Below, one piece after another: positions 221-47,725 of a DNA stretch of 64,000 bases. How positions within the stretch are numbered: the stretch's first letter is position 1; each line of letters begins with the position of its first letter. A program made the translations under genes and the position numbers. The DNA is taken from the NCBI GenBank assembly GCA_950097015.1, contig CATNEN010000038.1, forward strand, positions 12,896,001 through 12,960,000, read 5' to 3'. The notes beneath the pieces were generated by a model. The model was given only the letters and a program-made list of their open reading frames with translations, was not told the DNA's origin and searched no databases. The stretch comes from Macrostomum hystrix (taxonomy: Eukaryota; Animalia; Platyhelminthes).

Positions 221-3200
221 TCAGCTGAACCCGAATCGAATTCGCTTGACCGCCTGAGCCTGATCGGGAACAGCACGGTAGCCTCGAAGCTGCAGGTGCA
301 AATCTGCGTGGCCGGATGTTGCCGACCGAACAGCTGATGGCAGGCCGGCCAGCTGCGCCACAGAGCCGCTGGCCTCCAGCACGGTGACGTCACCGAGTGC
401 GCTGCCGCCGCAGCTGCGATCAACGCGTTCAACGCTGCAGTGTCGGCGCGCCAGCTCTGCCAGAAGGGCGTCAAAGGCGGCTGACGGCGCCGAAGCTTCG
501 GCCAAGTCGACGCGGAGTCGCATCAGCGGCTCGGTCAGCTGGACGCAGTCGGAGGACGCCAGGCGTTGTCGAACAGCGGAGTAGACCGCCGAGGTCACCT
601 GCGGGCAGGTGTGAGTTTGGCTAGATTGGGGTCAGCTGACCTCCAATCTTACTCGACTAGGAAAGTAAATGATTGGGTCAGCTGACCTCCAATCTTACTC
701 GACTAGGAAAGTAAATGATTGGGTCAGCTGACCTCCAATCTTACTCGACTAGGAAAGTAAATGATTGGGTCAGCTGACCTCCAATCTTACTCGACTAGGA
801 AAGTAAATGAGGGGGACAGATGACTAGTATTGATCGATTGCAAAGTAAACGACAGGTGTCAGCTGTCATCAATACCAGTAAGTAAATACGGGAGTATCGA
901 ACAAGACATTCAATCCCCTAACAGTTACCGCAATCCCACCTGTTGCAGGTATTTCCCTGGTGGAGCACCAGCGTGACCGGCTCGAGCCACGCCGAGCTGC
1001 AGCAGTCGGGCCCTGCAATTCGTCACCTGGCCGCGCACCAGCGGCCCAGCTCGCAGCGCTTTGGCCAGGCCGTCGCGCACCGCACGCAGAACCTGAGGCG
1101 GCAGCAAGCCCCAGTTCTGAGCTTCGGTGTTAACGAAAGTCGTTTCCGGCTCGGCGTTGGCCTCGGCAGCGGCGTCGGCTTCGTCTGCTGGCAGTCGAGG
1201 CAGAAGCTCCAGCGAGAGGCTCACCTCTATGGGGGCACCGTGCGCTTCCGCTCGCTGACTGAAATTCTCTATGGTTGCCATGGCAACTAGACGCTCGCGA
1301 TAGGAGACGGTCACGGGACCAAGGCGGAAGGCGTGCGGACCGAGCTGCTCACGGAGACGTTGGCCCGCCACCTGAGGAATAATGAATGAGCGAGAATACT
1401 CAGGATGAGGATCTGGAAGGAAAGATGCTGGGGAACTCAAACTGGGGATCTGGGAGAGGATGCCTACTCAAACTGGGGATCTGGGAGAGGATGCCTACTC
1501 AAACTGGGGATCTGGGAGAGGATGCCTACTCAAACTGGGGATCTGGGAGAGGATGCCTACTCAAACTGGGGATCTGGGAGAGGATGCTTACTCAAACTGG
1601 GGATATGGGAGTGGATGCCTGCTACTGGGGATCTAGAATATTTGCTGTGGAAATAGGCGAACCCCCCTGACCTGCAGGTGCAGTTCACCAAGGCCGCAGA
1701 GCACAGTCTCGCCAGTCTCTTCATCAGTACGCAGCCGCAGGCCCGGGTCCTCCAGCACGAGGCCGGCGAGAGCTTCGTCCAAAGGCTTGGCCCATGCCGG
1801 CGATTCGGCTTCAACTGAGGCAAAAACCACCGGATCCGGTGGGCGCAGCAGCGGCAGGCGGCGACGACGGGGTCGGGTATCTGTCGGAGTTTCATAACTC
1901 ATTTCATTCGGAGTTATGAAGTTTCATAACGCGCAAAAGTCGATAACATGACAATTTCAATGCAGACTACTGCCAGTAGAGGATTATGGCAATCGTTTTT
2001 TTTCAAAAAGAGCTAAAAAAAATTTCTTAGTGCTAAGCATACCATTTAAAGTCTCGTCTAGATCTTCTAAGTCGTCAGCAGTCGCCTCCCTGGACAAAGG
2101 CTGGTCGCTCACGATGTCCCCAGTGGTCACGGCCGTGGAGGCGGCCGTGGCACCAGAACCGGCAGCAGTCGTGGACTGTCCGAACGATGCGGCCACAATC
2201 TGGCCGGGCCCAGCGCCATCTGGCAGCTCGGTGAATTCGTCCGCAAATGGCCGATAGACCCTGGCGCACCTGTGCGGATGGCTGCCGGAAGACACACCGG
2301 AGGTGACAAACAGGTTGGCCTTTGGCAGCAGCCGGCCTGAGAAGATCCTGAGCAGCGGAGCAAAGAGATTTAGTGGCTTAGAAAGTAGATTTAATTTCTT
2401 TAACAGTAAAAGACCACGCTATATTCCTACTTGGTTATTTCAAATACCCACTGCCTACTTAACGATAGCTCCCAAACAGAATGACCGATGTTCGTAAAAG
2501 TCCACCATATGGATCAAAATTTTCCGACTTTCATTACGAATAGGAATACGAATTTCATTATCGGATAGAGTGGAAAATTTTAGCCCGTGTTCTGGATTTT
2601 CATTGCGATTGGTAGAATATTTTAGGAGATACAGAAAAAAGTAAGAAGTGCGTTTTTGAAATACCCCCGTGGTATTTCTACTGTTAAATCACGTGAAGGC
2701 ATGCGACCTCTCTACAATAGCACCATAAGGTCACGTGACAAATGGTTCTAACCGAAAGAATGTGAGCGAGCCCTTGGCCGGATCGCGAACCGTCTTAAAC
2801 GCCAGCGCCTCGAGCGCCTCCGCCGTCTGCTTTGTTGTCGCGGAGGTCGGGGGCACTTCCGGCGGCGGCAGGAACTGCAGCACAGCGTCCAGCAGCTCTG
2901 GGATCCCGAGACCCAGCTTGGCCGAGCCACATAGGGTTGGCGCCAGACGAAGACTCCGGGTGGCCCGCGCAAGCGCCGGCGTCAAATCTGTTGCCATGGA
3001 GACGCTGTCAAAGTCCGGAGAAGAGTCGGAAAGAAATTTGTCAGCTAGAATTTCGTCGGCGTCAACGACTGCCTCTAGAAGACGGCGGCGATCTTCGACG
3101 AATTCTGAGTCTTCGGCACTTAAGAACGGGTTGGCGGACGTCCATGAGCAATGAGAAGCAATATGCTTCTAGGAAAGCAGATAAATTTCGAGTAAAAAAT

Positions 3201-4188
3201 GTTTACTAGGCAGACTTACATTTTGCTGTCATCAGCAAGCAGCGGCAGCAGTCGGTCGATGCCGCCACCGACTGTCGGCCGGTTGATCAGAACCGGCGCC
3301 AGGCCCAGCTGGGCGGCCAAAGAGGCCAGGCAGGCACGGACTGCGGGGATGCGCCTATTGGCGGGCAGCAAGTCCAGCTTGTTGAGGAAGACCAGGGCGG
3401 GCAGGCCGAGGCGATGTGCCCGACGGCACACTGAGACTGTCTGAGCCTGCACGCCGCGCGTGGCGTCCAGCACCAGCGCAACGCCGTCTGCAAGTTTGAA
3501 TTGAGAATATTATCCCACTTTTGATAAGGCATAAGAACTAAATACTTTACTTCCCGCCCCATTATCTCCACCTTATCTACTTCCAGTCCCTTTATTTTCA
3601 CCATATCTACTTCCAGCCTTTCCATCGCTCACCTGATCTATTTCCAGCCCTTTCATCTCTCATCTTATCTATTTCCAGCCCTTCCATCTCTCAACTGATC
3701 TACTTCAAGCCCCTCTATCTCTCACCCTATCTACTTTAAGCTACTCAATCTCGCAGTCTCTAATTCCTCAATACCTTAACTCATCTACTATCAGCCCTCT
3801 TGAAACCCTCGCCAGACTGACCTAGGGCGCACAAAGCTCGCTCAACTTCAAACGCAAAGTCAACGTGGCCAGGCGTATCAATCAGGGTGATCTGATGGCC
3901 CTTCCATTTAAAAGCAACGGCAGCCGACACGATAGTGATGCCCCGCTCCCGCTCCTGTGTGAGGTAGTCGGTGACAGTGTCCCCCCGGTCAACACTGCCA
4001 ACAGCTCTAGTTGCGCCAGAAACATTGAGAATTCTCTCAGTTGTTGTCGTCTTGCCGGCGTCGATGTGGGCCACAATGCCAATGTTGCGCAGTCGAGACA
4101 GGCTGCCGCTGGTGGCAACAGCGGAAGCACTCAAGAGCAGCTGCGTGAGGCGCTGCAACAGTCGATAAACGAAAGTCATTAAAAACAA
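221..4188 (-). CDS. GFM2: Mitochondrial ribosome-recycling factor EF-G2mt (multi-exon; start codon unresolved)
   Basis: Exons at approx. 3823-4153 ([44 protein letters not shown]), 3219-3488 (FLNKLD), 2752-3150 (CGSAK, ALAFK), 2042-2345, 1672-1890 ([26 protein letters not shown]), 941-1372 (VSYRE) and 221-598 (LTEPLM...RSATSGHA), mostly with GT-AG flanks. The [10 protein letters not shown] signature favours EF-G2mt over EF-G1mt. Confidence 0.9.
624..810. repeat. 46-bp tandem repeat (~4 copies) in the last GFM2 intron
   Basis: Unit gattgggtcagctgacctccaatcttactcgactaggaaagtaaat, containing the palindrome ggtcagctgacc. Confidence 0.95.
1436..1633. repeat. 31-bp tandem repeat (~6 copies) in a GFM2 intron
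   Basis: Unit ctcaaactggggatctgggagaggatgccta. Confidence 0.95.
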
Positions 4189-7100
4189 AGGTTGAAAGAA
4201 TTCTGGCTGTTTGTACTCCTAGATTGTATAATGCTACATAATTCTTAGAAAATATTCTAGCGAGACTCCTGAGAGATAAGAGACAAAGAAATAATTTTTG
4301 ACTCGCCAAGTGAGGGAGATACCTAGGGGCCATGGACTCTGCTCAGTTTTGATAAAAATGGTCTTGAAATTTATAACGATTTATACTTAATGTATTACTT
4401 ATATTCAAACTGGCTAGTAAAAATAGTCATCGCCACAATAAAAGTAAACAAAATACTGAAATTAACTAGCTTTAACTTACTTCACTTAAAAAATATACAA
4501 AAAGACATGACTGGCTGGTGATATTGCCCCATTATGGCCTTGTTTGGATGTTAGCCAGCAAGCTAACTTGTGGCCTGAATTTTCAGGTATAGCTAGCTAC
4601 CAAAACACTTTGAGATTACTAGAAGATTATATAAATAGGCAAAGTAGCTAATATTAAAGAAATTCTAAAGGCAGACTAGCAGCCTAATCTAACAGACTTT
4701 GTAGTATTCTTAATTTTTCCTGTTTATATAAACAGTTTAATTTGCAACAAACAGACATTTTGCAGTTACAAGTTTACACTTAACTTTATCTGCTTAAAAC
4801 AGATATAACCTTAATGTAAAATATCATAAAATATTTTTATTGACATTGAAATGATGCTTATCTTACAACACATAGTAACAGTACCTAATTATATATATAT
4901 AATAATAACTTTGCATACCAATGGTTTAAAAGTTAATGTTGTGTCATTAATTGAGCTTGTTATTAAAGTTTTAGCATACTTTCATGTTACAATCCCCATT
5001 TTTTCATTATTTCCTTATATGATGAACATTAAAATGAATAAACAGAAGAATGTGGATCTAAAAGTGTTGTTCCAAGTGTAATTCATACTACCATTACCAA
5101 AATTCTGAATCATTTCAGATGAAAACTACATCAACAAGGATGACAACAAAAGACGACAGGAAACCAAGAAGCAGAGTTTCACTTTGCTTTTCACTTTTAT
5201 ATATTCACTTTTGTGTTACCATCTACTCCTCATATGAAACATTAAGGGGCTTAATTCGGGCCATAATGAGGAAGGCATAGCATGTACACCAAAACAAAAC
5301 CTATCTGGATTTTTTATGTGCCCTGTGCACCATATAACAATGCCAGCTAATGTGTGTGCCAAAAAGATCGAATATGATCACATGACATGAACAATGGTCA
5401 GTGATCATAAAACTAAATAATGGTCCAAGTTTTCAGCTTATGCTAGCAAATACTAATAAACATATTTCCTTCCGCCATCATTCTTGTAGGTCGACATCAT
5501 ATTTTATTAATAGCTATAAATAGAAATAATATTTTTCCCACATAAGATGTGATGACTAATGACAGGACTTGTAAAATAGTCAATAGAAAAAATATTTTAT
5601 GCATAGCAAACAGCACAGCACAGCACAAAACTTTCAAGATAAATAAGACAACTAAAAAGTACACCTATTTGCAGAGTTTTGGTGATAGCAAGGTAGTGCT
5701 TTACAAAATTTATGAAAAAGAATATTAAATAATGGATCCATAAGGACTTCTTAATAGAAGTCCTTATGGACTTCCTTATAGTTTAAATGGTTCGAATCGT
5801 AAATATAAAATATTATCGTACTTTTATAAATTACTTCGTAGAAAAATTGATTTTTGAAAGTTTCAATAAGTAAGCTTCATAACTTCTTAGCCTCCTAAAT
5901 AAAGTCCAGCGATCTTTTAAATGCTAATTGTTAATTACGCGATTTTATTTTATTTACTCTAGTTTTTTCAAGGCACAATAGAATTTTTCCAACTTGTTAT
6001 AACTATCCAGCGCTGATTTTTCAGATCAGGATACCGTAACAAATTTAAAAGGTTTATACCGTCAGATCGTTAAAGTCGTTAAAAGGACATTTGAATCGTC
6101 TATGTCGTATTTGCGGAACTGCTCTAACTGACATTATTTTATCTGTTGTGTAGATGTTTTTATATGTTGGCACAAATCTTATTGTAAAATTTATAGTATT
6201 CTTTATTCATTACTGGTACTACAATTGTCTTTCTACTATATTATCTTCCCTTGACTATGTACTGCACCCTGCCCTGGCTTAACTCTTAAAACTCTGAAAA
6301 TCCGAAAATAAACATTGCTCTTTTGGCTATGGCTGCTATGTATGATAACTTTCCTTTAAAGGAGGTCATATATTGACCGTTGATATTTTGGACATGTCTT
6401 TTGCCATATGCCAATTAGGCCAAGATAATAATTTTTTGTTCTAGGCCCTAGCATCGTGGCCTACAACCCTACACATTATCTCAAGATTTCACCAATGTTT
6501 TGTTTTTTTTCTCTGTCAAACATTAGGCCTAGCCTATTCTAAATCTCTGACTCGCATATTATTCTGTCCTGTCTGTCCTCAGTCCTTCTAGTGCTAGCAT
6601 TTAGTCTGTCTACAACTAATAGGGCCTAACTACAGAATGGAAGTGCTTATTCCCACAGTCCCGTGCCAATAATTTGAATTTTATCCACGTATCCGTGCCA
6701 ATAATTTTCTGCTTATCCACATTTTAATGTATTTACTAGTATTTACTAGGCCTAGCATAAGATAATGATAATTTTTAGTTCTTTGGCAATTTTAAACAGA
6801 TTTTTATATACATTTTGTTTTAAGTGCAGTACAAATGCCTTGCCATTTGTCCAAGAAAAGTAACATTTGCTAAATTGTGAATAGGAAAGGTCAGTTAGCT
6901 AAAGAGTAGAATAGGGCCTACTGTTCTAGTATGTATAAAGCATTTGTTTTGATAACCTTATACTTATACTTGCAAAGAGCAATAGCCTTAAAAACCAGAT
7001 TTGCTTTCTAAATTCTTGGCATGTACATATTTTAATAATAAATGCAATCTTGCACAACAATAACAATATCAATAAATAGAAAAGCCATACCAAATGATGT

Positions 7101-7642
7101 TTAAATTCATAGGCCTAATTATCCTTAGGTTGATGGCACACAACTCACAAGCTCATACAAAGTTTCTTTAAAAAAACATGTTATTAGCTGAGAAGACTAG
7201 TAAATATATTTCCCCTTTAGGGGGAAGACAGAAGAAAAAAGAATTTTGAAGCCCTAACTGAATAACTAATTTCAAGTCCATTAGTGCTATTTATTATCAA
7301 AGGACCTAGTTCAAACCTTTGGCATTCAATATTCAATGACCTTTAACATAATACATTTTATAGGCCTAATGCAAAAGAAAAATATTTTTACCTCTACTTG
7401 CAATTTGTAACTTAGCTTCTTATTTTAAATTCTTGAGCTTATTTTTAGTTGGCCATAGGCCTAGCTAGATTGCTATTTTCTTTAATAGACCTAGTAAAAA
7501 AATCTCATATATGAGAAATCCAAAAGAACTAAAATGTAATATCATTGCCACTTGTCATTTCTAGTCATTTACTGTGCTTTTTTTCTGTGTAAAATATTAT
7601 AATTACTTAATTTTGTAAGGGATGTTTAGTAAAATATTACAT

Positions 7643-7725
7643 ATGATGAACCTAGGTAATAGGAAGTGCCGACTGAAGCCACATCTTCTTTTTTGGCAAC
7701 TGTTGCATAGTTTAATACCATCTGA
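7643..7725 (+). ncRNA. SNORD49: Box C/D snoRNA, U49/SNORD49-like, copy 1
   Basis: Box C ATGATGA at 7643, guide TAATAGGAAGTGCCGA followed by D' CTGA, terminal box D CTGA at 7722-7725. The guide is antisense to the conserved 28S rRNA segment GUCGGCUCUUCCUAU. Intronic, about 80 nt upstream of an AG acceptor. Confidence 0.85.
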
Positions 7726-7925
7726 CTGTTTTATTTATAGTCATTTTTAAATAACACTTGATATTGTCATTCATCAAAAATTTTATTTTTGTTCTTTTTT
7801 TCAGCCATCCTATCAGGCCACTTGCAACACTTAAATGGAAGTCCGAAGATCAAATTTTTGTGGTGAGTATGTAAGTTTTCTTCCACTTTTTAGCTGTTTT
7901 TATCTTAAACTGCTCACTACTCTAC

Positions 7926-8008
7926 ATAACAAACCTTGGTAATAGGAAGTGCCAACTGAAGCCAGTTCTTTTTATTGTGGCTACTGTTGCTTAGTTTCTG
8001 TCATCAGA
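7926..8008 (+). pseudogene. Degenerate U49-like snoRNA, copy 2
   Basis: Same body sequence, but box C is mutated to ATAACAA, the guide has a G>A change (gccaactga) and box D reads CAGA. Confidence 0.7.
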
Positions 8009-8369
8009 TTTTGTTGTTGAAAATGGTACACTCGTATAACTTGTATGTTTTATCTTGAAAACTTTTGTGACAAACAATTTTCCTTTCTAGATACTCTTTT
8101 GCATTAATGATGGACTGAGCCAATTTTTTCAACAACATTTGAAAAATGTTTATGTAAGTTTTTATTACAATTTCGTGTGCCTTGGTTAGTAATACAAGCG
8201 TTTGTATAATAAAAGTTCTGCCGTGTCAGTCATATTAGTTTGCATTTTTTAGTTTCTGCATAGCAAAAGCTCTTACTTTCCCTATCATGATGTTAATAAC
8301 TATGACAAATTAGTAATTCAAAAGTTAGATGAATTACTTGCACCTTCAAATCAAACTTTAGACGTTGAA

Positions 8370-8451
8370 ATGATGAACCTTGGTAATAGGAAGTGCCGAC
8401 TGAAGCCAGACCTGTATTGCGGCTACTGTTGCATAGCTAAATGCCATCTGA
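8370..8451 (+). ncRNA. SNORD49: Box C/D snoRNA, U49/SNORD49-like, copy 3
   Basis: ATGATGAaccttggTAATAGGAAGTGCCGA-CTGA...ccatCTGA; intronic. Confidence 0.85.
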
Positions 8452-8655
8452 TTAAGTTCCTATTAGGAATATTTGTATAATTGTTTCTAAACAAATAATT
8501 ACATATATGTTTTTGCACTTTTTTGCAGATTAAGAACCTAAAGTTGGACTATCCTCATCAGCTGGATACACAAATTTGTGAGTCTGAAATATAATTTATA
8601 CTGTCGTTTTACTTTTATTAGGATTGTGTGCATGTATCGCATTGCAGACTTTTTA

Positions 8656-8737
8656 ATGATGAACCTTGGTAATAGGAAGTGCCGACTGAAGCCAGACCTT
8701 TATTGCGGCTACTGTTGCATAGCTAAATGCCATCTGA
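8656..8737 (+). ncRNA. SNORD49: Box C/D snoRNA, U49/SNORD49-like, copy 4
   Basis: Nearly identical to copy 3; lies in the intron 8578-8823 (gtgagt...ttgcag). Confidence 0.85.
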
Positions 8738-9019
8738 TATTTCCTATAAGTAACATTTATCTATATGAAATGTTTCTTAACTAAAAAAACAAAAATAGCG
8801 TTTGCATACTTTTTTCATTGCAGATTAAAAACTTAAAGTTGTGACTCCCTCTTCGGCTGAATAATCAAATTAGTGAGTCCTATATTTACTATTACTATAA
8901 TAATCATATTTGCAGGATAGCTATTTGGGCACTAGCACATCATTTGTTGACAGTAGACCCGAAGCCGTCGAGGTAATTCTGCTCATTCCACAGACTCCTG
9001 AGAAGACGCACACATACTT

Positions 9020-9230
9020 TACACGGCACACACACAGGTGTGTACATCTGCCCCTAGATTTCTCATCGTCAAGACAGTGTACATTCTCCCGGCCTTGGTT
9101 AAAAGTTAGCCTACATAATAGGACAAGCCTGCACCCATAAATAGCAAAAATGTGGCCTCGCCGCGGAATCGAGCTTAGGGACTTTAGTGGAAGTGTCCAA
9201 GGCGTTACACAGCTCTGCCACTCACCAGTT
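9020..9230 (-). mobile_element. tRNA-derived SINE-like insertion
   Basis: The minus strand reads agtggcagagctgtgtaacgc...gctcgattccgcggcgaggcca (A-box/B-box-like, tRNA-like head) and the element ends near a short (CA)n tract. Confidence 0.45.
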
Positions 9231-9279
9231 AAGCTGTGATATACTATTAGGATTGCATCTATCGCATAGAAGACGTTTA

Positions 9280-9360
9280 ATGATGAACCTTGGTAATAGG
9301 AAGTGCCGACTGAAGCCAGATTTTTTTGCGGCTACTGTTGCATAGCTAAATGCCATCTGA
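9280..9360 (+). ncRNA. SNORD49: Box C/D snoRNA, U49/SNORD49-like, copy 5
   Basis: Intact C, D' and D boxes and guide; lies in the intron 8973-9441. Confidence 0.85.
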
Positions 9361-10059
9361 TTGTTTATTAAGCGTGTTATGGAAGTCTTTATGTTATAAC
9401 AGTTTCTGTTTAAAAAAACTCCCTACCCTCTCTTTCCGCAGTTCGAGTCAACTGAATGCGGTCTCGCGTGTCGTGCCGAAGAATGGTGTTATTGTGAAGT
9501 CACTAAAAAGAAGCTGTATTTATTTCGATTAAATTGAGTGATATTTTCTAGTTTCTAATGCGCACTTCTTTTACAGAAAATATTCTACAGTTTTTCTTTC
9601 TTCAGTTTTTTATGAATCGTGTACGTCATTGCGAAGATGTTTCAAAACTGGATATTTTATGTTCCTCTATATGTTAAATGGCAGGTGGCAGTAAGACATT
9701 TCAAGGCAATTATAATTTGTCAAACGTATAGCTCTCAGATGCAATTTTATTACAATAAATACATCCTGCCGCCTTTACTGATTTATTTATAATTTGGAGA
9801 TTCTGGTTACATTTTTTGAGTTTATAAAAAGTTCAAGAATATTTGTTTCCATTCATTTTTACAGAAGTGAATTGGCTTATAATTAATGGGTTTAAGTATC
9901 ATGAGAGCTAAAACTATAAAAGGCCTTGATTTGCATAAAAATATGCTCTGGGTAAGCTAATAAAGCATAAAAACAAGCCTCAACCCATACACTTATCTTT
10001 GCCGTTATCTCAAGTTAACACTCGTTTACAGTGCCCTCAGATGAGTCCAGAACACGTAA

Positions 10060-11633
10060 TATAGCTTTTGTCAAGCTATCTCAGCGAATGGGCATTCAAA
10101 CTGAGCCAGCCCATCTTGTCACAGCGGTTTTTTGCTGAAGCTGCTAATTTTTACCATAGACATGCATTTTAAGACCATGCTATCTCAGCTTGGGACGAGC
10201 AATCTCAGCCAACATATAAGTTCTGTGTTATTCTGTCTATAGTTTTGTTAACATTTTAAGCTGTTCCGCCAAAATGTTGATAGAAGACCCTTTATCTCCG
10301 CGTGTACGGAAGGACAGGATATTGGTCTAGCCGCTACAATTCTTGGCATCAAATTGCAAACCGCTCGCCACATCATTGCCACTTTTGAAGCTACAGGTCG
10401 GATTGATGCTCTTCAGCGCGGAGGCCGGAAGATCGGCTCTTGCAAGCTGGACGACGAGATGCGCCAAGTGCTCATCGGCCTCTTAAATGAAAATCCGATG
10501 GCGACACTGAAAGCATTGCAGACTAATCTCGCTGCTCAGCTTCCAGACAAGCCACCGGTCTCCATTAAGACAATAGCCAGAGCTCTGGATGGAGCCCTGT
10601 ATACATTTAAGATTGCCACTAAGAACTACGACATTCGATTGAGTGCAAACTCTCCCGCGGTGATAAAGAAGCGACGCGAGTATGCGCTACTCATGGCGGG
10701 ACTGCAACTGGATACGGTGGTAATCTATATAGACGAGACGGGGTACAACCTCTGGACGCGCAGATCACAGGGAAGGTCGCGACGGGGTCAGCCAGTGAGA
10801 CGGCGTTGCCCAACACAGAGGGGTCCAAATCTTTCCATCTGTCTGGCCGTGTCATCTGCACTTGGGTTGGTGAAGAGTGAGTTATTCAGAGGAGGCCAGA
10901 CAAAGGAGAGGTTTCAACAATTCATCAATGACCTCGTGGAGCAAGTCATCCCGGAAATCGGCAACGCCAGAGTCGTCATAGTCTGCGACTGTCATCGCGG
11001 TGTGACAGTGCCGGAGCAGCACCGCCATCAGTTTGAAATTCAGCTGCTGCCCGCTTACTCGCCGTTTCTCAACCCGTGTGAGATGGCTCATAGTGCAGTG
11101 AAGGCTTCGATCAAGCTGCAGCTCGCTGAACCCGCACTGGTGGAGGAAGAAGCTGGTGGCCGACCTGATGGAGTCACCTGCGTGGAATGGCGCATTTTTC
11201 TGCTGGAGCGAGTGGGCCGAGACTCTGCAATTTGTGGCGCCAATGAAGGTAGCCAGGTGGGAAATTCACTGCAACCGGAGCTTCCCACAATGCATCCAGG
11301 AGGTACCTTTCAACTAAACTGAAATAGCCTGTTAACAGATTGTCTCTGGTATAGCCATTTTCAAAGTTTGCTCTGTATATCCCATCCCATACTCTGTTTT
11401 CTGTTACCCTGTTTTTCTCTTGTAAATAGACTGTTTAAAAAATGTTAACAAAACTACAGACAGAATAACATAGAACTTATAGGTTGGCTGAGATTTCTCG
11501 TCCCAAGCTGAGATAGCAATTAAAATGCATGTCTATGGTAAAAATTAGCAGCTTAGGTAAAAAAACCGCAGTGACAAGATGGGCTGGCTGAGATCGAATG
11601 CCCATAGGCTGAGATAGCCTGACAAAAGCTATA
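10060..11633 (+). mobile_element. Tc1/IS630-family DNA transposon with ~200-bp imperfect TIRs, degenerate
   Basis: 10060-10257 is the imperfect reverse complement of about 11440-11633 (tatagcttttgtca...gttaacatttt / aaaatgttaac...gacaaaagctata), and the pair flanks a transposase ORF. Confidence 0.88.
10354..11322 (+). pseudogene. Tc1/IS630-like DDE transposase, probably inactive
   Basis: HTH region, YIDETG (D1), VCDCH (D2, lacking the usual DNAxxH residues) and LPAYSPFLNPCE (E). No ATG at the expected N-terminus; the C-terminus looks frameshifted. Confidence 0.85.
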
Positions 11634-12109: not shown

Positions 12110-13629
12110 TCAAAGTTTAGAATTAGCGACCGTGGTGACAGCTGTTCCCGGCGGTGTGTCCGCGAAGCCGCCTGGCTGGCGCGTTCTGCTCTGCGTCTGA
12201 TGCTGGCCCAGCGATGAGGCAGCCGCGGAGGTGCCCGTCCACCGTTGGCAGCACCGGCAGAAGCAGCAGCAGCGGTGCGCCAGTCGGATCGCCTCTCGGC
12301 GAAACTGCGGATTGCTGGCGCAGTAAAGCAGAAAGTTGCAACAGTGGTTGGTGAACTGCAGCACCAACAGGGTGGACCACAGGATCCGGTAGGAGTAGAA
12401 CAGGCTGGGATTAGAGCTCGAGCTCAGCCAGTCCGGATAGGCGCCGCCAATCACGGTGAGGTAGAGCTTCACAGGCGAGGTGAGCAGCACGAAGGCGAAG
12501 CTGGTGAGCAATAGCATTACGGTAGTGCGGTAGCTCGCCAGCTTGGATTGGCTGCTGCCTAAGACTGAGGCTTGCCGCACCGCACGCAGTTTGGCTATGA
12601 TTGCCATGTTGCAGATGAGGATCACTGCAAACGGCAGAAAGGCCGTTAGCGCAAGATCGATCCGCGGAAATACGACCTCGACGAAGTACTGATACTGTTG
12701 CAGATTCTCACAGGACACTCCTAGCAGACTGGAGTTGCGGTTTAGTTGGCGGGTGACCGGGAAGTGGAGATTACAGGCCAACAGAGCCACGAACACTGTG
12801 GACAGAACTGTCGCCAGGCCGCGCTTGGAGATTAGGAAGGCTCGACAACGACTGCCCTGGCTGACGCAGATTGTTACGAAACGCTCGAGTGCGATGATCA
12901 TAATGATCCATGAGGAGTACATCAGGCTTAAGTATAGCAGCAGTTCGAATCCTAAAAGTGCAGTGTTGCAACGGTGTATCTGTGAAATGTGTACCAGTAT
13001 TTGATGGGGTAGAAGTTTGGGTGGGTGTGGCAGTTGGCAGTCTATGGACTAAACAGCTTCATACACAACCTTATGTGCACTGCACAATAGCTGACTATGC
13101 TGCTGGCTGTGTACCTACCATGGCCCAACTAGGTAATTTTTAGTTTTCTCCCCTCTGTGCCCCTAAGTTTGGTCCGTCCCCTGATTATTAGTGGTTTTGA
13201 CAGTTCTGTATACCCGTACTCGTCCGTCCAGAAGGTCATTTGAGAATTTGGCTCAAAGAGTTCAAAGCTTTATCCTTGTCACCTGGACAGCAGGCGTCGC
13301 ACAGTGTCTGTGGATCTAGACTGTTTCCAAAGTTCTCAGTGAAGTAGGACGCCTTGCGCAGGTAGTGGCGCAGCAGACCGGTGAGCAGCACCACGCAGTC
13401 CACCAGGGAGAGCACGGTCAGCGGCAGGTGCACTACCAGGCTGCGGAGGCGGGGCTGCAGAAGCACCAGGAAGGCGCAGATGTTGCAGGCCACGCCGCAG
13501 GGTATCATGATGGGCGGCAGGATGTTCCAGATGGCCTCGTAGTAGATCTTCTTCCACAGCCAGTCGGGCTGCCGTCCAGTCAAGTTGGCCTGTTGGTCGA
13601 AGTCATGGTATTCCCAGTCGGGCTCGGGA
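12110..13629 (-). CDS. Class A (rhodopsin-like) GPCR, peptide-receptor type (FMRFamide/TRH-receptor-like); an upstream exon was not located
   Basis: Exon 13283-13629 (TM1 GVACNICAFLVL, TM2 LSLVD) and exon 12110-12926 (YSSWIIMIIALERF, FLPF, FVLLTSP, NHCCNFLLY, NPQFR), with GT-AG at both junctions. Confidence 0.88.
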
Positions 13630-14349
13630 CTGTCGAATAGACAGAAAGAATCTTTCTTCGCAGTAATTTTAAAACAGATAGCTATAGCTTCCTGTAGGAT
13701 TGTGAATGCAACTTATAGGGGTTTTGCAGTTTTTGAAAATAAAATTCATGGGAGCTGAGATGGGTGGCAGAACGTGGTTAACGCGTCTGCCTCTCGCAAA
13801 AAGGTCGCTGAGCTTGGGGCAACATACTGCACGTTCGGGGTTGTGCAGTATGGTGATTGTGCAACTTCCCTATTGTGAAGCAAATTAACCAATCGCTGCA
13901 ATCTATTATGATGTACTTCTTGCTTCTTGACTGTTGTCGCAGGTACATTATTTCTGGGTCCCATGAATTCCGCTCCGTTAGTTGCTCTATTGCAGTAGAA
14001 TTTTTCGGCTTATTTGCATAATCATAAGCAAAAAACTGACGCAGTTATAATTATAAATTTACCCATCAAAATAAACAGTTCAGCTGCTTTAGTGGAAAAA
14101 AATCTATTGCATACGGGTCGGTCGGCCTTGTTGTTGACATTTCAGAAATCGAGAGACCGTTGTAATTGGCGAAATGACAGCCTCGTCAATTAAATTATCC
14201 ATGCAGTTGCGTTTACCAGATCTGGTGGCGATTCACCCTATGTGTTTTTTTATATGCATTGGTCTTTAGCTGCTGCACTTGCTATGCCTATGACAACAGA
14301 CACGCTGATCGACCTGGGAGAGACAATAGACGCGCTGAAGGGCTATAGA

Positions 14350-17864: not shown

Positions 17865-19390
17865 TCATGCCAGGCCGCGTTCGATGACTGGCAGCACTCC
17901 GTTCAGCAGCTTCTGCCAGACGGCGCGTTGCTGGTCGAAATGCTCGCCCAGCCGATGCTGCAGAACCAGCATCAGCACCTGGTTCATGTCCTGTTCGGAT
18001 GGAACATCACATCACAGAGACTCAGCAATACATTTTTATTGTCAGCTTATCCCTGATAGAACTATCAAGGCGAGGGAAATTTCCTTCTCGACTATTTCTT
18101 TGCTGCACCCGAACGGAGCAACGCAAGCACACGAAACTCATGACCACGGGCCAACTGTTTTGTGCCTTGCTTATAAAGGTTGAAACAATAATCAAATAGC
18201 CAGCTCTTCAGACTGTCGAGATATTCAACGGTTCTGGCTGCTGGTCAGATTTTTCCCATGAGCGCTAGTAAATTTCGTACACCCCCTTATGAGCGTAAAT
18301 ACATTGTTACCACTGCGCCTCAGTGCGGCCTTGCCAGGCTTTCATATTTTATCAGCATGTCACCCGAATGTGCCTGCATCATCTCCGTCTCCGTCAACTA
18401 AGTACATGAGAATTAATTACTAATTACATGAGAATTAGTTACTAATTATATAATGCAATTAATGACTAGTTAAATGATTATTAATGACTAATTACGAGAG
18501 AATTAGTTACTAATTACATAAGAACTAATTACTGATTACATGAGACTTTTGTTACTAAATACATGAGAATTAATTAGTAAATACATGAGAATTAATAAAT
18601 TACATGAGAATTAATTATTAATTTCATGAGAATTAATAAATTACATGAGAACTAATTACTAATTACATGAGAATTAATTACTAATTACATGAGAACTAAT
18701 TACTAATTACATGAGAACTAATTACTAATTACATGAGAACTAATTACTAATTACATGAGAATTAATTACTAATTACATGAGAATTAATTACTAATTACAT
18801 GAGAATTAAATACTAAATATATGAGAATCATTTAAACGTAAATTGCTTCTTTTGCGACTAAGATTTGAACTCCTAAAACCTCTTGGTCAGAGATCTGATG
18901 CTCTAACCCCCCTCCCTCTTCAGTAAAAAACATACCCTTCCCAACCCCGAAAATTTAACGCACCTCGAAATGCTGCACTCGGAGTTGGCGGCCCTGGTGT
19001 GTTGAACCGATCATCTCAAAGGCGCTGGCACAGACGTCAATGTCGTCCAGGTTCTGAATGGCCGCCTCCAGCGTGTTCACCATACGCATGCCGTGCGCCT
19101 TCAGTCGCGGATGCCCGCTCAGCTCCTGAGTGGACCGACCAGCGAAGTCACGGAACAGCAGCTGGTGCTCCGGGTGCAGATCAAACAGCCTGCCTTGGTG
19201 ATTGAGACCGAAGAGATTTCGAGGACAACTCGGTCACTGTGGACTCAGAGTAAAACTAAAACTACTACAAACAACTATAATCAACGCCCTCTCACGTGAG
19301 GAAAATGTCCACACCGAGCTGCTTCTTGTCCTTTGTGGCTTCAGCCCAGCCGCTCAGAATGACGCTGCGCTCCTCGGTCGTAAGCAGCAT
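17865..19390 (-). CDS. Globin, 148 aa, 3 coding exons (19296-19390, 18964-19189, 17865-17990)
   Basis: Manual translation: MLLTTEERSVILSGWAEATKDKKQLGVDIFLT|LFDLHPEHQLLFRDFAGRSTQELSGHPRLKAHGMRMVNTLEAAIQNLDDIDVCASAFEMIGSTHQGRQLRVQHFE|DMNQVLMLVLQHRLGEHFDQQRAVWQKLLNGVLPVIERGLA*. Has Trp A12, Pro C2, Phe CD1, His E7 and His F8; introns are phase 2 and phase 0 at the canonical B12.2/G7.0 positions. Confidence 0.93.
18403..18828. repeat. AT-rich ~22-bp tandem repeat in globin intron 2
   Basis: Unit aattactaattacatgagaa(c/t)t. Confidence 0.9.
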
Positions 19391-20425: not shown

Positions 20426-21034
20426 TCACCTCAAGGCCTGGGGATACACCACATTCTTCGTTCATCCCCTTGGTGCGAAAATGAATAGGCCAGCTGGAGT
20501 TCCAACACGGGAGCAGGCGACATAAAGCTGCCCATGCGAGAAGCAAGGAGTCTCCAGGTTGATGCCAGCCACCTTCAGCGACTGTCCCTGAGCCTTGTTA
20601 ATAGTCATCGCAAAGCACACTCTCACAGGGAACTGCAGTCGCTTGAACTGAAATGGCAGGTCCGTGGGGATAATTGGAATCCGGGGAACGAACACAGACT
20701 CTCCTCTGCCAGATCCAGTCATTATCGTGGCCTCAATCACGTGTGGGAAGAGCCGCCTGACTATCAGTCTGGTGCCGTTACACAGCCTTGGCGCATTCAG
20801 GTTGCGGAGGAGCATAATTGGTGCCCCAACTTTCAGCTGCAAGTTGTGCGATGGAGTTCCAGGAGGATCTAGAGAGTTCAGAAACTCAACAGGATACTCC
20901 ACAGCGGTGTCATCAGTCAACGTTGTATCAATTGACTTGTAGGTGAAAACTGCACCTGGCAACTCGTGAAGCAGTTGGTAGTTAATTTCGTTGGCGGCAT
21001 CATTTCTAGGACACAGAATTGCCCTCTCTGACAG
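20426..21034 (-). pseudogene. Helitron RepHel Pif1-like helicase C-terminal fragment
   Basis: LSERAILCPRN...LKVGAPIMLLRNL...LCNGTRL...KRLQFPVRVCFAMTINKAQGQS...FSHGQLYVACSRV. An in-frame TGA at 20462-20464 precedes the expected terminal TKNVVYPQALR*. Confidence 0.92.
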
Positions 21035-23277
21035 CCCGGGCTTCGGCGCCCGGGGAAGGGAGGGGGTGGCTGTAATAAAATTTGGCCCGCAGAGTGGCGG
21101 AGGGGAGTTGGGGCATAGATAAAGTATACATAGATTCCACCCCTACCCCCGCGGAGTGTCTAAATTGTGACCATCACTTTATTCACTGCGCTCCTATTGG
21201 CTGGGCCACGCTATGCACATTGAGTCCACGTGTATACTTTATCTATGTTCGGCGCCCGGGGAAGGGAGGGGGTGGCTGTAATAAAATTTGGCCCGCAGAG
21301 TGGCGGAGGGGAGTTGGGGTGGCTGTCCTCGGAAAACAAAAAGTGACTCACTTTGAGATGATGCAGCTTTGCTCTGGATTGAGTTGAGATGTTCAAAATT
21401 GACAGCATTGTTGGAAAACATTTAAAGTGTAAGTGGATCAAATTTGGAGAAAATCTGACAAAGTGGGGCGACGATATGTCGACTTTATCTATGGTTGAAA
21501 GGAAGGCTTTCGCGCCAGCCAATGAGAGCACGGTGAGTTTTATGGTGGTCAAAGTTTGGACACGAGCGTGTGTACATTCTGGGCAGGGGTGGAATCTATG
21601 TATACTTTATCTATGAGTTGGGGTGGCTGTCCTCGGAAAACAAAAAGTGACTCACTTTGAGATGATTCGGCTTTGCTCTGGATTGAGTAGAGATGTTCAA
21701 AATTGACAGCATTGTTGGAAAACATGTAAAGTGTAAGTGGATCAAATTTGGAGAAAATCTGACAAAGTGGGGCGACGATATGTCGAATTGAGTGATTTTT
21801 TGACGATTTTTGAGCAGTTTTTTGCACTTTTGAGCAGGAAGGAAATTATTTTTCGGGAATTTGAGTAGCCTATTGCACTCAGCGTAGGTGGTTTTAGGTA
21901 TGTGCAAAGTTTCGTGCGATTTGGTTGAGCGGTTTCGGCGTCTATAAAGACAAAAGGTTGCACACACACACACACACACACACAGACAGACAGACAGAGT
22001 TTTCACTTTTATATATATAGATTGTTGTCGACCAGATTAGGAAACAAATTTGCTGTGGCACGCCATTAAAATTCATATGAAACAATTTGAAGGTAGTGGC
22101 GGCTTATGGGGGCTGCAGCCTAGAGTTTAGAGTGTCGGAACCACAGCTAAAAATCGGGGGTTCGGTTCCTGACTCCACTGGAACATATAGCCCTATTTTT
22201 GCTAGTGTAATAAAGTATTATTATTATTGTTATTATAGCCTATAGCTCAAATTGAAGCTTTTAGCTCTTTTTGAAATATTACGCGCTTTCGACAAGCAAT
22301 TGTTTTTTATTTATTACAGGTTTGTAGACTTTGTGAATTAGAATATCGGGAGTGTGGTGTGAGGAATAAGTGGACCTACTGTCCATGAAAAACTAATCTG
22401 GTCAAAATATCCAAGAATTTTTATGTAACAGCGGATAGTTTGAGTGGTCTAACTGAGTATTTGGAATTGGAAAAAAATAAACTTTCTACTAGCGAGGAAG
22501 CTTTGCATATTTTCCAGCACCACTTCTGCGCGTGCAGCACCAGACAAGGTACTAAGATCAAGCTTGGATGCTACGAGTGAATTCTGCTGCTTGATGGGCG
22601 GGATTCGCCCATAGGCCGCTATTCTACCTTTGTCAAAGCTGCATTACGACACTTTTGCAGCAACCTGGGTCGGACACAGACCCATCATTTCAGTAGTAGC
22701 AGCGGTTGGAGATGAACATTGATGATGAATTGAGGAAGCTGGAAGTGGTCGCTCGCACCAACTCAAAGATAAAAAAATCAACAACAAAATTTGAAACAAA
22801 GACTCAGAAAGATATGAATTGGATACTAGATTGGATTGGAAACTAGTCTCCGCTTCGGCGCTGCTCCGACAGATCATATCTGGCAGCACTCCTTCTGCCA
22901 GACGGCGGAGTCTCCGAAGAGAGCACAGCTTACTGACTCTGACTACAGGCGCCTATCTAGACCACTCTTTACCAGAGGCGCACTCCCAAGACGCGGAACG
23001 CTGATACCTAACTGACGAGCAGATTGTGGTCGGGAACGTTGCTGGGTAATCTCACGCTTAGAGCGCGGCTCTCTTGCTTATCACTGAGGTGGGGGCGAAT
23101 CGGACGGTCTAGGCTCCGAGTACAGGAGTTTTTACAGACAGGCCGAAAACGCGGTTTTATTTTGTAGAACGATGAGAACCCCTAATTATGGTGATTGGCG
23201 TGGCGGCTGTCAGGCTGGCAGCTGGAGCCTGGGTGGAATTCACAGCAGAATTCACCGGGGTAGAAATCAGCAAGGCT

Positions 23278-45388: not shown

Positions 45389-47475
45389 ACATTTACCTGA
45401 GCTATTTAACAGTTTTATTTAAACATTTGAGTAAGCTACTGTAAGATGCAATAGGAATTAATGACTGGGAAAGAGTTTTAAGTTAAAGAACATATAGAAA
45501 ACACTAATATTTAGAAGTCTCAGGACTGTTCTCAAATAAACTAGCATGTAACTAAGCAAATAATGATACTTGAGTGATCGTAACAAAATATCCCATAAAC
45601 AGATTTTAAAAGATCCTAAAAATACTTTAATACAAGTACAGAATAAAAGCTTATTAATTTTTTGCACATTGTTGAATTAACTGTGTATGTACATAATTAA
45701 GTGTTAGCCATGTAGGCTACAATGAGCCATTAGTACTATTGAAGTACTACTGCACATATGTAAAGCACATTATATACAAATAAAAGCAGTCATTAATCTG
45801 CCCCATCAAATACTAGCTTTCAGACTGCAGTGCAGTATTAGTTTTAAAATGCTTAGGAACTAAATTGCTCAATGCTAAGTTAAAAAGGGTGTGCTCTTTT
45901 ATAATAGAATGCAGTCTGTTTTAAGGTTAATACAAGTTAAAGCTATTGTCATTAATGTCATTATTATTTTTGTCATTATTATCTCATTATTATTATTATT
46001 ATTATTATCATTATTATCAACATTATTATTGTCATCATCATTATTTTCATTAATATATTAAAAATGCAATCAATAAAGATTACATATAATTAATGAGCCT
46101 TTTTGAGGTAGCTTTTAAGAAAATCTAATAAAATGATAGGCTTAATGACTGATGAACACATTGGAAAAGGTAACTTTCCAAATGCAAAATCCAAATACCA
46201 AATGTTTATTCCATTAGCATCTGCAAACACATATGCTGCCCTCTTAAATAAATAAATAAATATATATGCTACTTAGTATTGTATTAGTAGTAGTTGTACT
46301 TAATAGTAGTCTCTTACTTCAGTTGTTACGATTGAATTCTTTTTATGTTTTATCATTTTTATGAATCCTATAAATAAATAACAGATAAAATTGTTCTTTA
46401 AAGCTAACTATGCTTATTTGATCACTTAGTCAGTGTTACATTTTATTGAAAGTATTTTGATTTTACTTCTGATTACATAATTATAGATACAATAATATAA
46501 TAGTAATTATTGTCAACCACATAGCCAGAAATTTTTTTGGGGGGGGAGAGGGAAAGGCTGCCCCTAAGGGAGGGAAAAGGAAATTCTAAATCTTGAAGTA
46601 TTGCATGGCCTGTTGCTGAAAAATGCCATCGCCGATCATATACTAGAAAAATGGACTTTATTAATTTTTTTGGCAGCTGTTTGGGGGGATACATTCTCCC
46701 CCACCCCCTCCCTCACTGATTATTGTAAAATAATAGTAGGGCCTATACTATAGCCACAATATGTTATTATTTAAGTTCCCTATACTATTTGTGGAAATAT
46801 AAGGAAATACAACTACAAGATATAGGGAAGTCAATCAGTTACCAGAGTAATCTTGGCCAGAGTTCCAAAAATATGGGACTATAGCTTGTCAGCAATGAAT
46901 CCCATTCCAAGAGGCTATTCTACTCTGTTGCTTTGTTGGTTGGACAACATGAATCTATTGTATATAACAAAGCATAGAGGTAAGCACTACAATTTATAAT
47001 TTTTTATTGATTAAACTTGTAAATGTTCTCACAATTACTTGTTTAAGCATTTTGCCACTATAGTATTAGGCATATTTTTGTTGAATTAAATTGCTACAAA
47101 CTTACAACATATAAGCTAACTCTGTTCCATTCCTACACCTTCTACATAAGGAGGCTTTCCTCATTCCAGTGCAAATCAATCTTCTCCATCAAAAATGCAA
47201 TCTGAGATATGAGTGGCCACATTACAAATGGCAATATGAGGTCATGGTGAAACTCTAGAAAAAGCTGCATTCAATTACTATCCAGTAATTTTTATTGAAT
47301 GTGCTTGCCTAGCTCATCCCCCAACTTTGTCCGCAACAATGCTGCTCAGTAGGCCTAGTACATTCCAAACCTGTACATACTCAGGTTTACAACTTTTTTG
47401 TTACTTTTAATTATTGATTATTAATTGATTGTCACTTTTAATAACAATAACAATATTACTTTGTATATTATTATT

Positions 47476-47725
47476 CATACATGTGCAACACCTGGCCGAC
47501 CTGGCTGAACTGACCGGGGGAAACGAGTGCCAAGCAAGGTAAGTCGCAAAAACCAATCATCCATGCACAAAAAAATCAAAGGGGGACCAAGGGACAAAAA
47601 AGGAAGGCGTGAAGAAAAGGAAAAAGTGGAGAGAAAAAGAGAGCAAATGAGAGCAAACTAAGTCGTAAATAGAGCAAAAACTAAGTTGCATGACCGGCTA
47701 AGATTTGGGAGGTTGCGCATGTATG
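47476..47725. mobile_element. hAT-type MITE
   Basis: 14-bp TIRs catacatgtgcaac / gttgcgcatgtatg (one mismatch), with the 8-bp TSD ttattatt on both sides. Confidence 0.8.

What the first reader, a model, noticed from the sequence alone, without database searches (positions are those of the whole stretch)
7600..9540. Non-coding host gene built by exon-intron duplication, carrying five copies of one U49-like snoRNA
Seen: five ~82-nt copies of a C/D-box unit, each 75-90 nt upstream of a 3' splice site, separated by 49-63 nt non-coding exons. Two exons (8529-8577 and 8824-8872) are themselves paralogous. Established: C/D guides methylate the base paired with the 5th nucleotide upstream of D/D', which here predicts Cm in 28S GUCGG[C]UCUUCC in the peptidyl-transferase region. 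From memory, the guide, including its U-U mismatch, matches vertebrate U49. Inference: a single-snoRNA amplification array undergoing birth and death, which ORF-based annotation would miss.
Basis: partly seen in the sequence, partly recalled or inferred. Interest (0 to 1): 0.75.

Follow-up and report, generated by a model that had tools for sequence, protein, structure and literature searches.

The report
U49 snoRNA array with outron copy
This spliced, apparently non-coding flatworm gene carries four intact copies and one decayed copy of a well-known small RNA predicted to guide a ribosomal RNA methylation; one intact copy lies in front of the site where a spliced leader is joined on, so it is likely salvaged from the normally discarded front end (outron) of the transcript rather than from an intron.

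Summary
The array is real. Five 81-83-nt box C/D units each end 77-86 nt before a splice acceptor. Public-run contigs show spliced exons of 58, 63, 49 and 49 nt plus a last exon. Corrections: the last joint seen is 8872/9442, not 8972/9442, and copy 2 has decayed (boxes C and D and the guide changed). Rfam's best family is SNORD49 for 4 of 5 copies, below its gathering score. The D' guide pairs at 13 of 14 positions with the eukaryotic LSU site, C at +5, and keeps U49's unpaired U. This part is a known layout. Copy 1 therefore lies upstream of the trans-splice site, yet has 0 of 36 changes in boxes and guide against 12 of 47 elsewhere (p=0.0008). It is most likely released from the Y-branched outron. 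A rare cis-intron, an own promoter or recent relic status are not excluded. Not shown: mature snoRNA, transcription start, methylation, this species' 28S sequence.

The parts
7643..7725 (+). snoRNA copy 1 (U49-like, all boxes and guide intact), upstream of the trans-splice acceptor
   Evidence: SNORD49 26.9 bits, E 0.0019; 0/36 vs 12/47 changes; 79 nt to acceptor
7659..7672 (+). D' guide of copy 1 (D' box 7673-7676; +5 base 7668); holds the only CpG between 6695 and 7804
7783..7804 (+). polypyrimidine tract and AG: spliced-leader trans-splice acceptor
   Evidence: 22-nt loose end before 7804 in X2, X3, X4 equals the 3' part of the published M. lignano leader and is absent from the window
7805..7862 (+). 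exon 1 (58 nt); the leader's terminal AUG would open a 10-codon ORF that stops here
7926..8008 (+). snoRNA copy 2, decayed (box C ATAACAA, box D CAGA, one guide change), in intron 7863-8090
8091..8153 (+). exon 2 (63 nt), skipped in some contigs
8370..8451 (+). snoRNA copy 3, intact, in intron 8154-8528
   Evidence: (30.6 bits, E 0.0002)
8529..8577 (+). exon 3 (49 nt), paralogue of exon 4
8642..8648 (+). alternative acceptor 8 nt before box C of copy 4 (joint 8577/8648); would make copy 4 exonic
   Evidence: one contig of X4, shorter side 29 nt: weak
8656..8737 (+). snoRNA copy 4, intact, in intron 8578-8823
   Evidence: (27.1 bits)
8824..8872 (+). exon 4 (49 nt)
8896..9242 (.). probable insertion (approximate bounds) in intron 8873-9441 upstream of copy 5; holds a piece (9148-9189) shared with many unrelated contigs
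   Evidence: loose ends at 9148-9189; TACTATTA on both sides read from the sequence; insertion inferred
9280..9360 (+). snoRNA copy 5, intact, in intron 8873-9441
   Evidence: (27.1 bits)
9442..9806 (+). last exon; contigs end at 9743, 9748 and 9806; AATAAA at 9754; longest ATG ORFs 39 and 51 aa without a Pfam match
5751..6130 (.). CpG-rich island midway between the two divergent leader acceptors: inferred shared promoter
   Evidence: CpG o/e 1.76 against 0.28 and 0.20 on the two sides; no start site mapped
6131..7804 (+). inferred outron of the host gene (about 1.7 kb), contains copy 1; donor-like GTAAG at 7615 (another at 5870, inside the island)
   Evidence: inference
3822..4153 (-). first exon and leader acceptor (4153) of the divergent EF-G-type GTPase gene; the leader AUG is in frame
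   Evidence: loose end in X3 is the reverse complement of the leader end; Pfam GTP_EFTU E 1e-31

Best explanation
This is a spliced, leader-trans-spliced and apparently non-coding host gene carrying four intact and one decayed copy of a U49/SNORD49-like box C/D snoRNA, predicted to guide 2'-O-methylation of the 28S cytidine equivalent to human Cm4456; copies 3-5 are likely released from cis-spliced introns and copy 1 is likely released from the outron cut off by trans-splicing. Shown: copy number, boxes, exon joints, leader at 7804, guide complementarity to a eukaryotic LSU rRNA, constraint on copies 1 and 3-5, decay of copy 2. Inferred: transcription starts at the CpG island near 5750-6130, shared with the divergent EF-G-type gene; the snoRNP assembles during splicing at the usual distance from the acceptor, which should work for trans- as for cis-splicing; after debranching, 3' trimming stops at box D; the outron keeps its cap, so copy 1 also needs decapping or an endonucleolytic cut and 5'-3' trimming; the spliced host RNA, with a 10-codon ORF from the leader AUG that stops before three or four joints, would be removed by nonsense-mediated decay; copies 3-5 arose by tandem duplication of an intron-exon unit of about 290 nt.
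For: Rfam best family SNORD49 for copies 1, 3, 4, 5 (26.9-30.6 bits, E 2e-4 to 2e-3). D' guide: 13 of 14 Watson-Crick pairs at one site in 18S+5.8S+28S of locus L248, C opposite +5, matched by 1-2 of 2000 shuffles. The +5 rule is cited in PMC8162545; SNORD49A/B guide Cm4456 (PMC9941101); the chicken U49 guide is also on the D' side (PMC2653536). The unpaired U is in the Rfam consensus and faces U in 32 of 32 rRNA-context loci, where that position was left free in the pattern. Joints in 4 of 4 runs from two studies. Leader at 7804 in 3 of 4 runs; X1's contig begins at 7830 and cannot show it. Copy 1: 0/36 changes in boxes and guide against 12/47 elsewhere, p=0.0008 (p=0.006 without the inferred C'); copy 2: 5/36 against 11/48, p=0.40. 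Copy 1 keeps 79 nt to its acceptor, within the 77-86 nt of the others, although that spacer is only 51-57% identical to theirs. Its guide holds the only CpG in 6695-7804 (0 CpG against 18.8 expected in 6750-7640). Copies 3 and 4 are 81/82 identical against 39/50 for their exons (p=9e-5).
Against: All Rfam scores are under the gathering score of 37. Likeness to U49 lies mostly in box C and the guide: 1 of 11 probable chance loci scored as well with my model as a true SNORD49. With a lenient G-U-permitting score the guide's best site was matched by 0-6 of 60 shuffles. The rRNA used is from another, unidentified eukaryote, not this species. The leader evidence comes from one study, as contigs, which drop rare forms. 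Donor-like GTAAG words lie at 7615 (28 nt before box C of copy 1) and 5870, so a cis-spliced form is possible (3 such words observed, 4.5 expected). No start site is mapped. Gene conversion could account for part of the identity among copies 3-5. Y-branched outrons are assumed to turn over fast, and targeted enrichment of them failed in a flatworm (PMC8763715).
Confidence: 0.62

Rival explanations
1. Copy 1 is an ordinary intronic snoRNA: a minor or unseen isoform splices in cis from an upstream donor (7615 or 5870) to 7805, and the leader uses the same acceptor on other molecules.
For: GTAAG at 7615 and 5870. The 79-nt spacing is the usual intronic one. Contigs drop rare variants. [quoted passage not shown]
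Against: The only thing joined to 7805 in the listed joints and loose ends is the leader, in 3 of 3 organism-B runs. Donor-like words are not in excess. The tract before 7615 ends in TGTG, not YAG. An unpaired acceptor is what drives trans-splicing (PMC8629364). No same-strand gene lies upstream: the neighbour is divergent.
Confidence: 0.17
2. Copy 1 is a recently orphaned relic: it was intronic until an upstream exon or donor was lost and the acceptor became a leader acceptor. It looks intact because it has not yet decayed, or because conversion repairs it, and it yields no RNA now.
For: Sequence constraint records past selection. Copy 2 shows that copies do die here. No mature RNA is shown.
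Against: Twelve changes outside and none inside boxes and guide. The guide CpG survives in a zone that has lost every other CpG, including the second CpG that copies 3-5 keep, whereas copy 2 lost its guide CpG. Conversion would not be confined to functional positions.
Confidence: 0.1
3. Copy 1 is made as its own short transcript, or persists as a long capped RNA that ends in the snoRNA (like human LNC-SNO49AB), rather than being trimmed out of the outron to about 83 nt.
For: C. elegans snoRNA genes often have their own start sites (74 of 141 annotated; PMC3687364). A capped lncRNA ending in SNORD49A is described from SNHG29 (PMC11028025). The outron is capped, and caps harm snoRNA function unless removed (PMC12508059).
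Against: An independent gene has no reason to keep the splicing-linked 79-nt spacing. The 890 nt before copy 1 are CpG-free, unlike the island at 5751-6130.
Confidence: 0.08
4. The repeats are not functional snoRNAs (chance guide, repeat relic), or the host encodes a micropeptide that is its real product.
For: Below Rfam gathering score. Box C plus guide occurs by chance in large collections: most of the 119 stored metagenome loci look bacterial.
Against: Four boxes in order, guide at D', fixed spacing, selection confined to boxes and guide, exons drifting far faster than the units, leader ORF of 10 codons, other ORFs at most 51 aa without Pfam match.
Confidence: 0.03

Closest known systems
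SNORD49A/B (U49; Rfam RF00277), guide of human 28S Cm4456, in the non-coding host SNHG29
   Same: D'-side guide with the same unpaired U, same predicted target, non-coding host with more than one copy. Metagenome locus L079 shows two SNORD49 and two SNORD65 matches in 2 kb, with 79 nt from box D to the next acceptor-like site for one of each.
   Different: Longer (81-83 nt against a 71-position model), below gathering score; five copies of this one snoRNA and no other family found; host trans-spliced; one copy outside the cis introns.
Tandem C/D snoRNA repeats in repeated introns of lncRNAs (SNORD113/114, SNORD115/116, rat Bsr) and cis-duplicated paralogues in adjacent introns (chicken, platypus)
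   Same: One family amplified with its intron-exon unit, with gains, losses and conversion (PMC11028025 passages; PMC2653536 passages).
   Different: Small array, canonical rRNA guide rather than orphan, near-acceptor position kept, invertebrate, spliced leader.
gas5-type non-coding snoRNA hosts
   Same: Short poorly conserved exons, one snoRNA per intron; NMD of host transcripts is discussed.
   Different: The chicken gas5-like host has a 5'TOP start and mixed snoRNA families; here the 5' end is replaced by a leader ending in AUG.
SL trans-splicing in Macrostomum lignano and Y-branched outrons of flatworms
   Same: Same leader end, YTNCAG-type acceptor; 5.8% of trans-spliced genes are non-coding (PMC8629364); outron released as a Y-branched product (PMC8763715).
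   Different: Outrons are treated there as waste; the word snoRNA does not occur in either paper's main text.

Membership tests
Box C/D snoRNA | Box C (RUGAUGA) and box D (CUGA) at the ends, internal D' and C', 60-100 nt | tested here: met
   Copies 1, 3, 4, 5: ATGATGA, CTGA, CTGTTGC (C' assigned by position against the Rfam consensus), CTGA; 81-83 nt.
Box C/D snoRNA | Same boxes in copy 2 | tested here: not met
   Box C ATAACAA, box D CAGA: filed as a decayed copy.
Box C/D snoRNA | 10-21-nt guide before D or D' complementary to rRNA, target at +5 | tested here: met
   D' guide 13/14 pairs, C at +5, 1-2 of 2000 shuffles, on another eukaryote's rRNA. D-side spacer: no target above chance (618-1972 of 2000).
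Box C/D snoRNA | Stable mature RNA bound by fibrillarin/Nop56/Nop58/Snu13; methylation of the target | not testable with these tools
   Only assembled contigs were served; no small-RNA or RiboMeth data.
SNORD49 (RF00277) | Score at or above the gathering threshold (37 bits) | tested here: not met
   26.9-30.6 bits for 4 of 5 copies, E 2e-4 to 2e-3. Six other U49-like loci also score 26.5-34.1. Not a formal Rfam member; it is predicted to work like U49.
SNORD49 (RF00277) | D'-side guide to the LSU cytidine equivalent to human C4456, with the unpaired U at +6 | tested here: met
   (consensus); numbering from PMC9941101. That the L248 site equals human C4456 follows from the shared guide, not from an alignment to human 28S.
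SNORD49 (RF00277) | Complementary site present in this species' own 28S | not tested
   No genome held; no 28S of this species obtained.
Non-coding intronic snoRNA host gene | Spliced transcript with snoRNAs in introns at a fixed distance from the 3' splice site | tested here: met
   Copies 2-5: joints, 77-86 nt.
Non-coding intronic snoRNA host gene | No protein-coding ORF; exons poorly conserved | tested here: met
   Leader ORF 10 aa, longest ORF 51 aa, no Pfam match for the 39- and 51-aa ORFs; exon 3/4 identity 78% against 99% for their snoRNAs. No ribosome data.
Non-coding intronic snoRNA host gene | Every snoRNA lies between a cis donor and acceptor | tested here: inconclusive
   Copy 1: the leader is joined at its acceptor; no cis joint listed, but contigs cannot exclude one.
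SL trans-spliced gene (Macrostomum type) | Leader sequence joined at an AG acceptor and absent from the locus | tested here: met
SL trans-spliced gene (Macrostomum type) | Transcription start upstream, so that copy 1 is inside the outron | not testable with these tools
   Only the CpG pattern points to a start near 5750-6130.

The most novel reading that the evidence does not exclude
Outrons can be snoRNA hosts: a functional box C/D guide sits 79 nt upstream of a trans-splice acceptor, is loaded with its proteins during spliced-leader trans-splicing and is salvaged from the capped, Y-branched outron, a biogenesis route beside intronic, polycistronic and independent transcription.
Probability: 0.45. 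Interest if true: 0.72.

Novelty: new variant of a known kind. Interest (0 to 1): 0.5.

Why it matters
The array itself adds an unannotated flatworm U49-like guide and a small example of snoRNA birth and death; Rfam at its standard threshold misses it. If copy 1 is made from the outron, then position-dependent snoRNP assembly works with the trans-spliceosome and outrons are not only waste. It would also give a stable, countable marker of outron turnover (debranching, decapping, 5'-3' trimming), whose mechanism and rate are described as unknown (PMC8763715). The locus has built-in controls: three intronic near-identical copies, one dead copy, and copy-1-specific bases. It suggests screening the 70-170 nt upstream of all leader acceptors in flatworms, nematodes and tunicates.

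Tried and rejected
Whole-window Rfam at gathering: nothing. No genome held, so no search for other U49 loci, rDNA or the SL gene in this assembly. No listed run is on record as RNA: no RNA holder listed; X2-X4 are read as RNA-derived only because their contigs are spliced and carry the leader. No contig cover in 4360-6483 or 6956-7663: not used as evidence. Micro-exon 8954-8972: no joint listed. Second guide before box D: best site 11/14, at chance level, and not conserved in copy 1: rejected. C/D-like stretch 5019-5108: only a weak Rfam match (17.6 bits, E 5.4) and guides at chance level: rejected as unsupported. RNAalifold on four copies: 19 pairs, 0 compensatory; covariation uninformative. 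Viral contigs gave no 28S context (108 loci). Most of the 119 stored metagenome matches look like chance bacterial hits. Box D-to-acceptor spacing in 8 picked homologous loci (9 guides) gave 79, 91, 213, 298, 332, none twice, no box D twice: only weak outside support. The crude spacing null (p=1e-4) treats duplicated copies as independent and is not relied on. No same-strand downstream gene for an operon was found among ORFs of 90 aa or more: a DDE transposon, then minus-strand GPCR and globin. ARAGORN: 0 tRNA genes. The primary paper on the intron-position rule was not held; a review is cited instead. Paper search for multi-copy hosts with five terms found 0.
Full report
1. Observation. The region holds five copies of one unit, box C to box D at 7643-7725, 7926-8008, 8370-8451, 8656-8737 and 9280-9360. 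A sequence-only model built from four of them finds these five in the 64 kb (64-105 bits) and nothing else above 8 bits. Box D ends 79, 82, 77, 86 and 81 nt before the next acceptor. Four public runs hold the stretch (X1 from one study, X2-X4 from another). None is on record as RNA and all are assembled contigs. Their contigs show GT..AG joints 7862/8091, 8153/8529 and 8577/8824 in 3 of 4 runs and 8872/9442 in 4 of 4. Skips 7862/8529 (X2) and 7862/8824 (X1) and an alternative acceptor 8577/8648 (X4, side 29 nt) are each seen in one run. Exons 3 and 4 are paralogous (39/50; 0 of 500 shuffles), as are the spacers after copies 3 and 4 and the 40 nt before copies 4 and 5. Flanks of copies 1 and 2 are at or near shuffle level, so unit duplication is shown only for the 3' part.

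2. What the unit is. Rfam reports nothing at gathering score in the window. At E-value thresholds SNORD49 (RF00277) is the best family for copies 1, 3, 4 and 5 (26.9-30.6 bits against 37; E 2e-4 to 2e-3); copy 2 has no such match. To test the target I fetched 43 contigs by a pattern with two free positions. 32 of 43 are in rRNA context and all 32 have U opposite the guide's U; the fixed positions agree by construction. Of 15 of the 43 given to Rfam, 9 match LSU_rRNA_eukarya, and L248 holds complete 18S, 5.8S and 28S. Against L248 the 14 nt before D' make 13 Watson-Crick pairs at a single site with C opposite +5; 1-2 of 2000 shuffles do as well, and 41 of 2000 for copy 2 with 12 pairs. A lenient score that rewards G-U gave a weaker separation, 0-6 of 60 shuffles. 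The D-side spacer has no target above chance. The +5 rule is cited from PMC8162545 (passages), SNORD49A/B as guides of 28S Cm4456 from PMC9941101 (passages), and the D'-side position of chicken U49 from PMC2653536 (passages). The shared unpaired U argues for common descent, since a guide that arose independently would be expected to pair there (inference). Likeness outside box C and the guide is weak: my model hit 9 of 15 picked U49-like loci and 1 of 11 probable chance loci. This species' 28S was not available.

3. Selection. Copies 3 and 4 are 81/82 identical while their exons are 39/50 and downstream spacers 60/89 (p=9e-5 and 8e-9); conversion may contribute. Against copy 4, copy 1 has 0 of 36 changes in boxes and guide and 12 of 47 elsewhere (p=0.0008; 0.006 without C'). 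Copy 2 has 5 of 36 and 11 of 48 (p=0.40), with three changes in box C, one in box D and one in the guide. So four copies are constrained and one has decayed.

4. In X2, X3 and X4 the contig that covers exon 1 carries 22 extra letters before 7804. They are absent from the window and equal the 3' part of the Macrostomum lignano spliced leader (PMC5173321 passage; PMC8629364 passages and most of Results). The animal is thus a Macrostomum-type flatworm, the host is trans-spliced, and copy 1 lies upstream of the leader acceptor. The neighbouring gene runs the other way, encodes an EF-G-type GTPase (Pfam GTP_EFTU; the name GFM2/RRF2mt is my recall) and also receives the leader, at 4153 (shown in X3; X4's contig leaves 23 letters over at the same place). 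The leader AUG is in frame with its first exon. Midway between the two acceptors lies a CpG-rich patch (5751-6130, o/e 1.76) flanked by CpG-poor arms (0.28 and 0.20). 6750-7640 has 0 CpG against 18.8 expected, and the only CpG in 6695-7804 is in the guide of copy 1. I read this as a shared promoter with outrons of about 1.6-1.7 kb. Bidirectional promoters with outrons are common in C. elegans (PMC3730108 passages), which also warn that start sites cannot be inferred from leader sites alone. With the leader AUG the spliced host encodes 10 codons that stop in exon 1 in all three joined forms examined. The longest ORFs (39 and 51 aa, last exon) have no Pfam match.

5. Mechanism. Box C/D snoRNAs sit at a conserved distance upstream of the 3' splice site because assembly is coupled to splicing through Aquarius/IBP160 (PMC8162545). 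Copies 3-5 fit this and would be freed by debranching and trimming (PMC12508059 passages). Copy 1 has the same spacing to a trans-splice acceptor. Trans-splicing releases the outron as a Y-branched RNA assumed to be debranched and degraded (PMC8763715 passages). I infer that the snoRNP assembles there as in an intron and survives the trimming. The outron is capped, so decapping or an endonucleolytic cut is also needed; otherwise a capped RNA ending in the snoRNA results, as described for human LNC-SNO49AB (PMC11028025 passages). None of these processing steps was observed. Rivals: a rare cis intron from donor-like GTAAG at 7615 or 5870 (3 such words seen, 4.5 expected), a recently orphaned copy, or an own promoter.

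6. Comparison and novelty. Cis-duplicated snoRNA paralogues in adjacent introns, gas5-type hosts and tandem intron repeats (SNORD113-116, Bsr) are described. U49 itself is doubled in the non-coding SNHG29, and metagenome locus L079 shows two SNORD49 and two SNORD65 (15 of 119 loci given to Rfam, picked by eye). This scan's own unchecked notes list 18 snoRNA-array findings in at least 14 genomes. The array is therefore a new member of a known kind; it is predicted to work like U49 but is not a formal Rfam member. I found no description of a snoRNA encoded in an outron in five searches of the held library (listings only, plus passages of PMC3687364, PMC3130273 and PMC8311971) or in the scan's notes. 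The library lacks most subscription journals, and supplements were not read. From recall, not checked here: trypanosome snoRNA cluster precursors are trans-spliced, but with the snoRNAs inside the spliced product.

7. Verdict. Observation partly confirmed, interpretation partly supported. U49-like guide and non-coding spliced host: about 0.9. Whole model, including release of copy 1 from the outron in some form: about 0.6. Strong novel reading (mature functional snoRNA salvaged from the outron, route undescribed): 0.45. Interest 0.5.

Noticed in passing
window 240-4153 (-): EF-G-type GTPase gene, SL trans-spliced at 4153; the leader's terminal AUG is in frame with the first exon and would supply the start codon of an N-terminal extension that looks like a mitochondrial targeting peptide. 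Introns 3488-3821, 3119-3219 and about 2347-2751 are bridged by contigs.
   Followed up: partly
window 4154-7804: CpG-rich centre (5751-6130) with strongly CpG-depleted arms towards both leader acceptors; other CpG-poor tiles at 33001-34000, 45501-47500 and 55001-55500.
   Followed up: partly
window 8578-8853: Alternative acceptor 8 nt before box C of copy 4; one contig runs from 8648 through the snoRNA into exon 4, an isoform with an exonic snoRNA (one run, weak).
   Followed up: partly
window 10060-11633: DDE (IS630/Tc1-type) transposon with long terminal inverted repeats and a 356-aa open frame (DDE_3, HTH) just behind the host gene.
   Followed up: partly
window 8896-9242: Probable insertion between two TACTATTA words in the intron before copy 5, with a piece (9148-9189) found in many unrelated contigs; it lies upstream of the snoRNA and leaves the spacing to the acceptor unchanged.
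   Followed up: no
window 5019-5108 (+): Perfect box C and box D 90 nt apart, without a guide above chance and without a convincing Rfam family.
   Followed up: yes
window 12110-13712 (-) and 18955-19233 (-): Rhodopsin-family GPCR exon(s) and a globin exon.
   Followed up: no
window 20462-21142 (-): Open frame that looks like a PIF1/Helitron helicase fragment by eye; not searched.
   Followed up: no
window 627-810 and 1430-1620: Short tandem repeats inside introns of the EF-G-type gene, read from the sequence.
   Followed up: no
L079 467-2021; L029 1000-1557: Metagenome contigs with clusters of SNORD49 plus SNORD65 (L079) and SNORD49 plus snoR38-family matches (L029).
   Followed up: partly
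L228-L270: 32 of 43 contigs fetched from prokaryotic genome assemblies carry the eukaryotic LSU rRNA context, probably contamination; L248 holds a whole 18S-5.8S-28S unit.
   Followed up: partly
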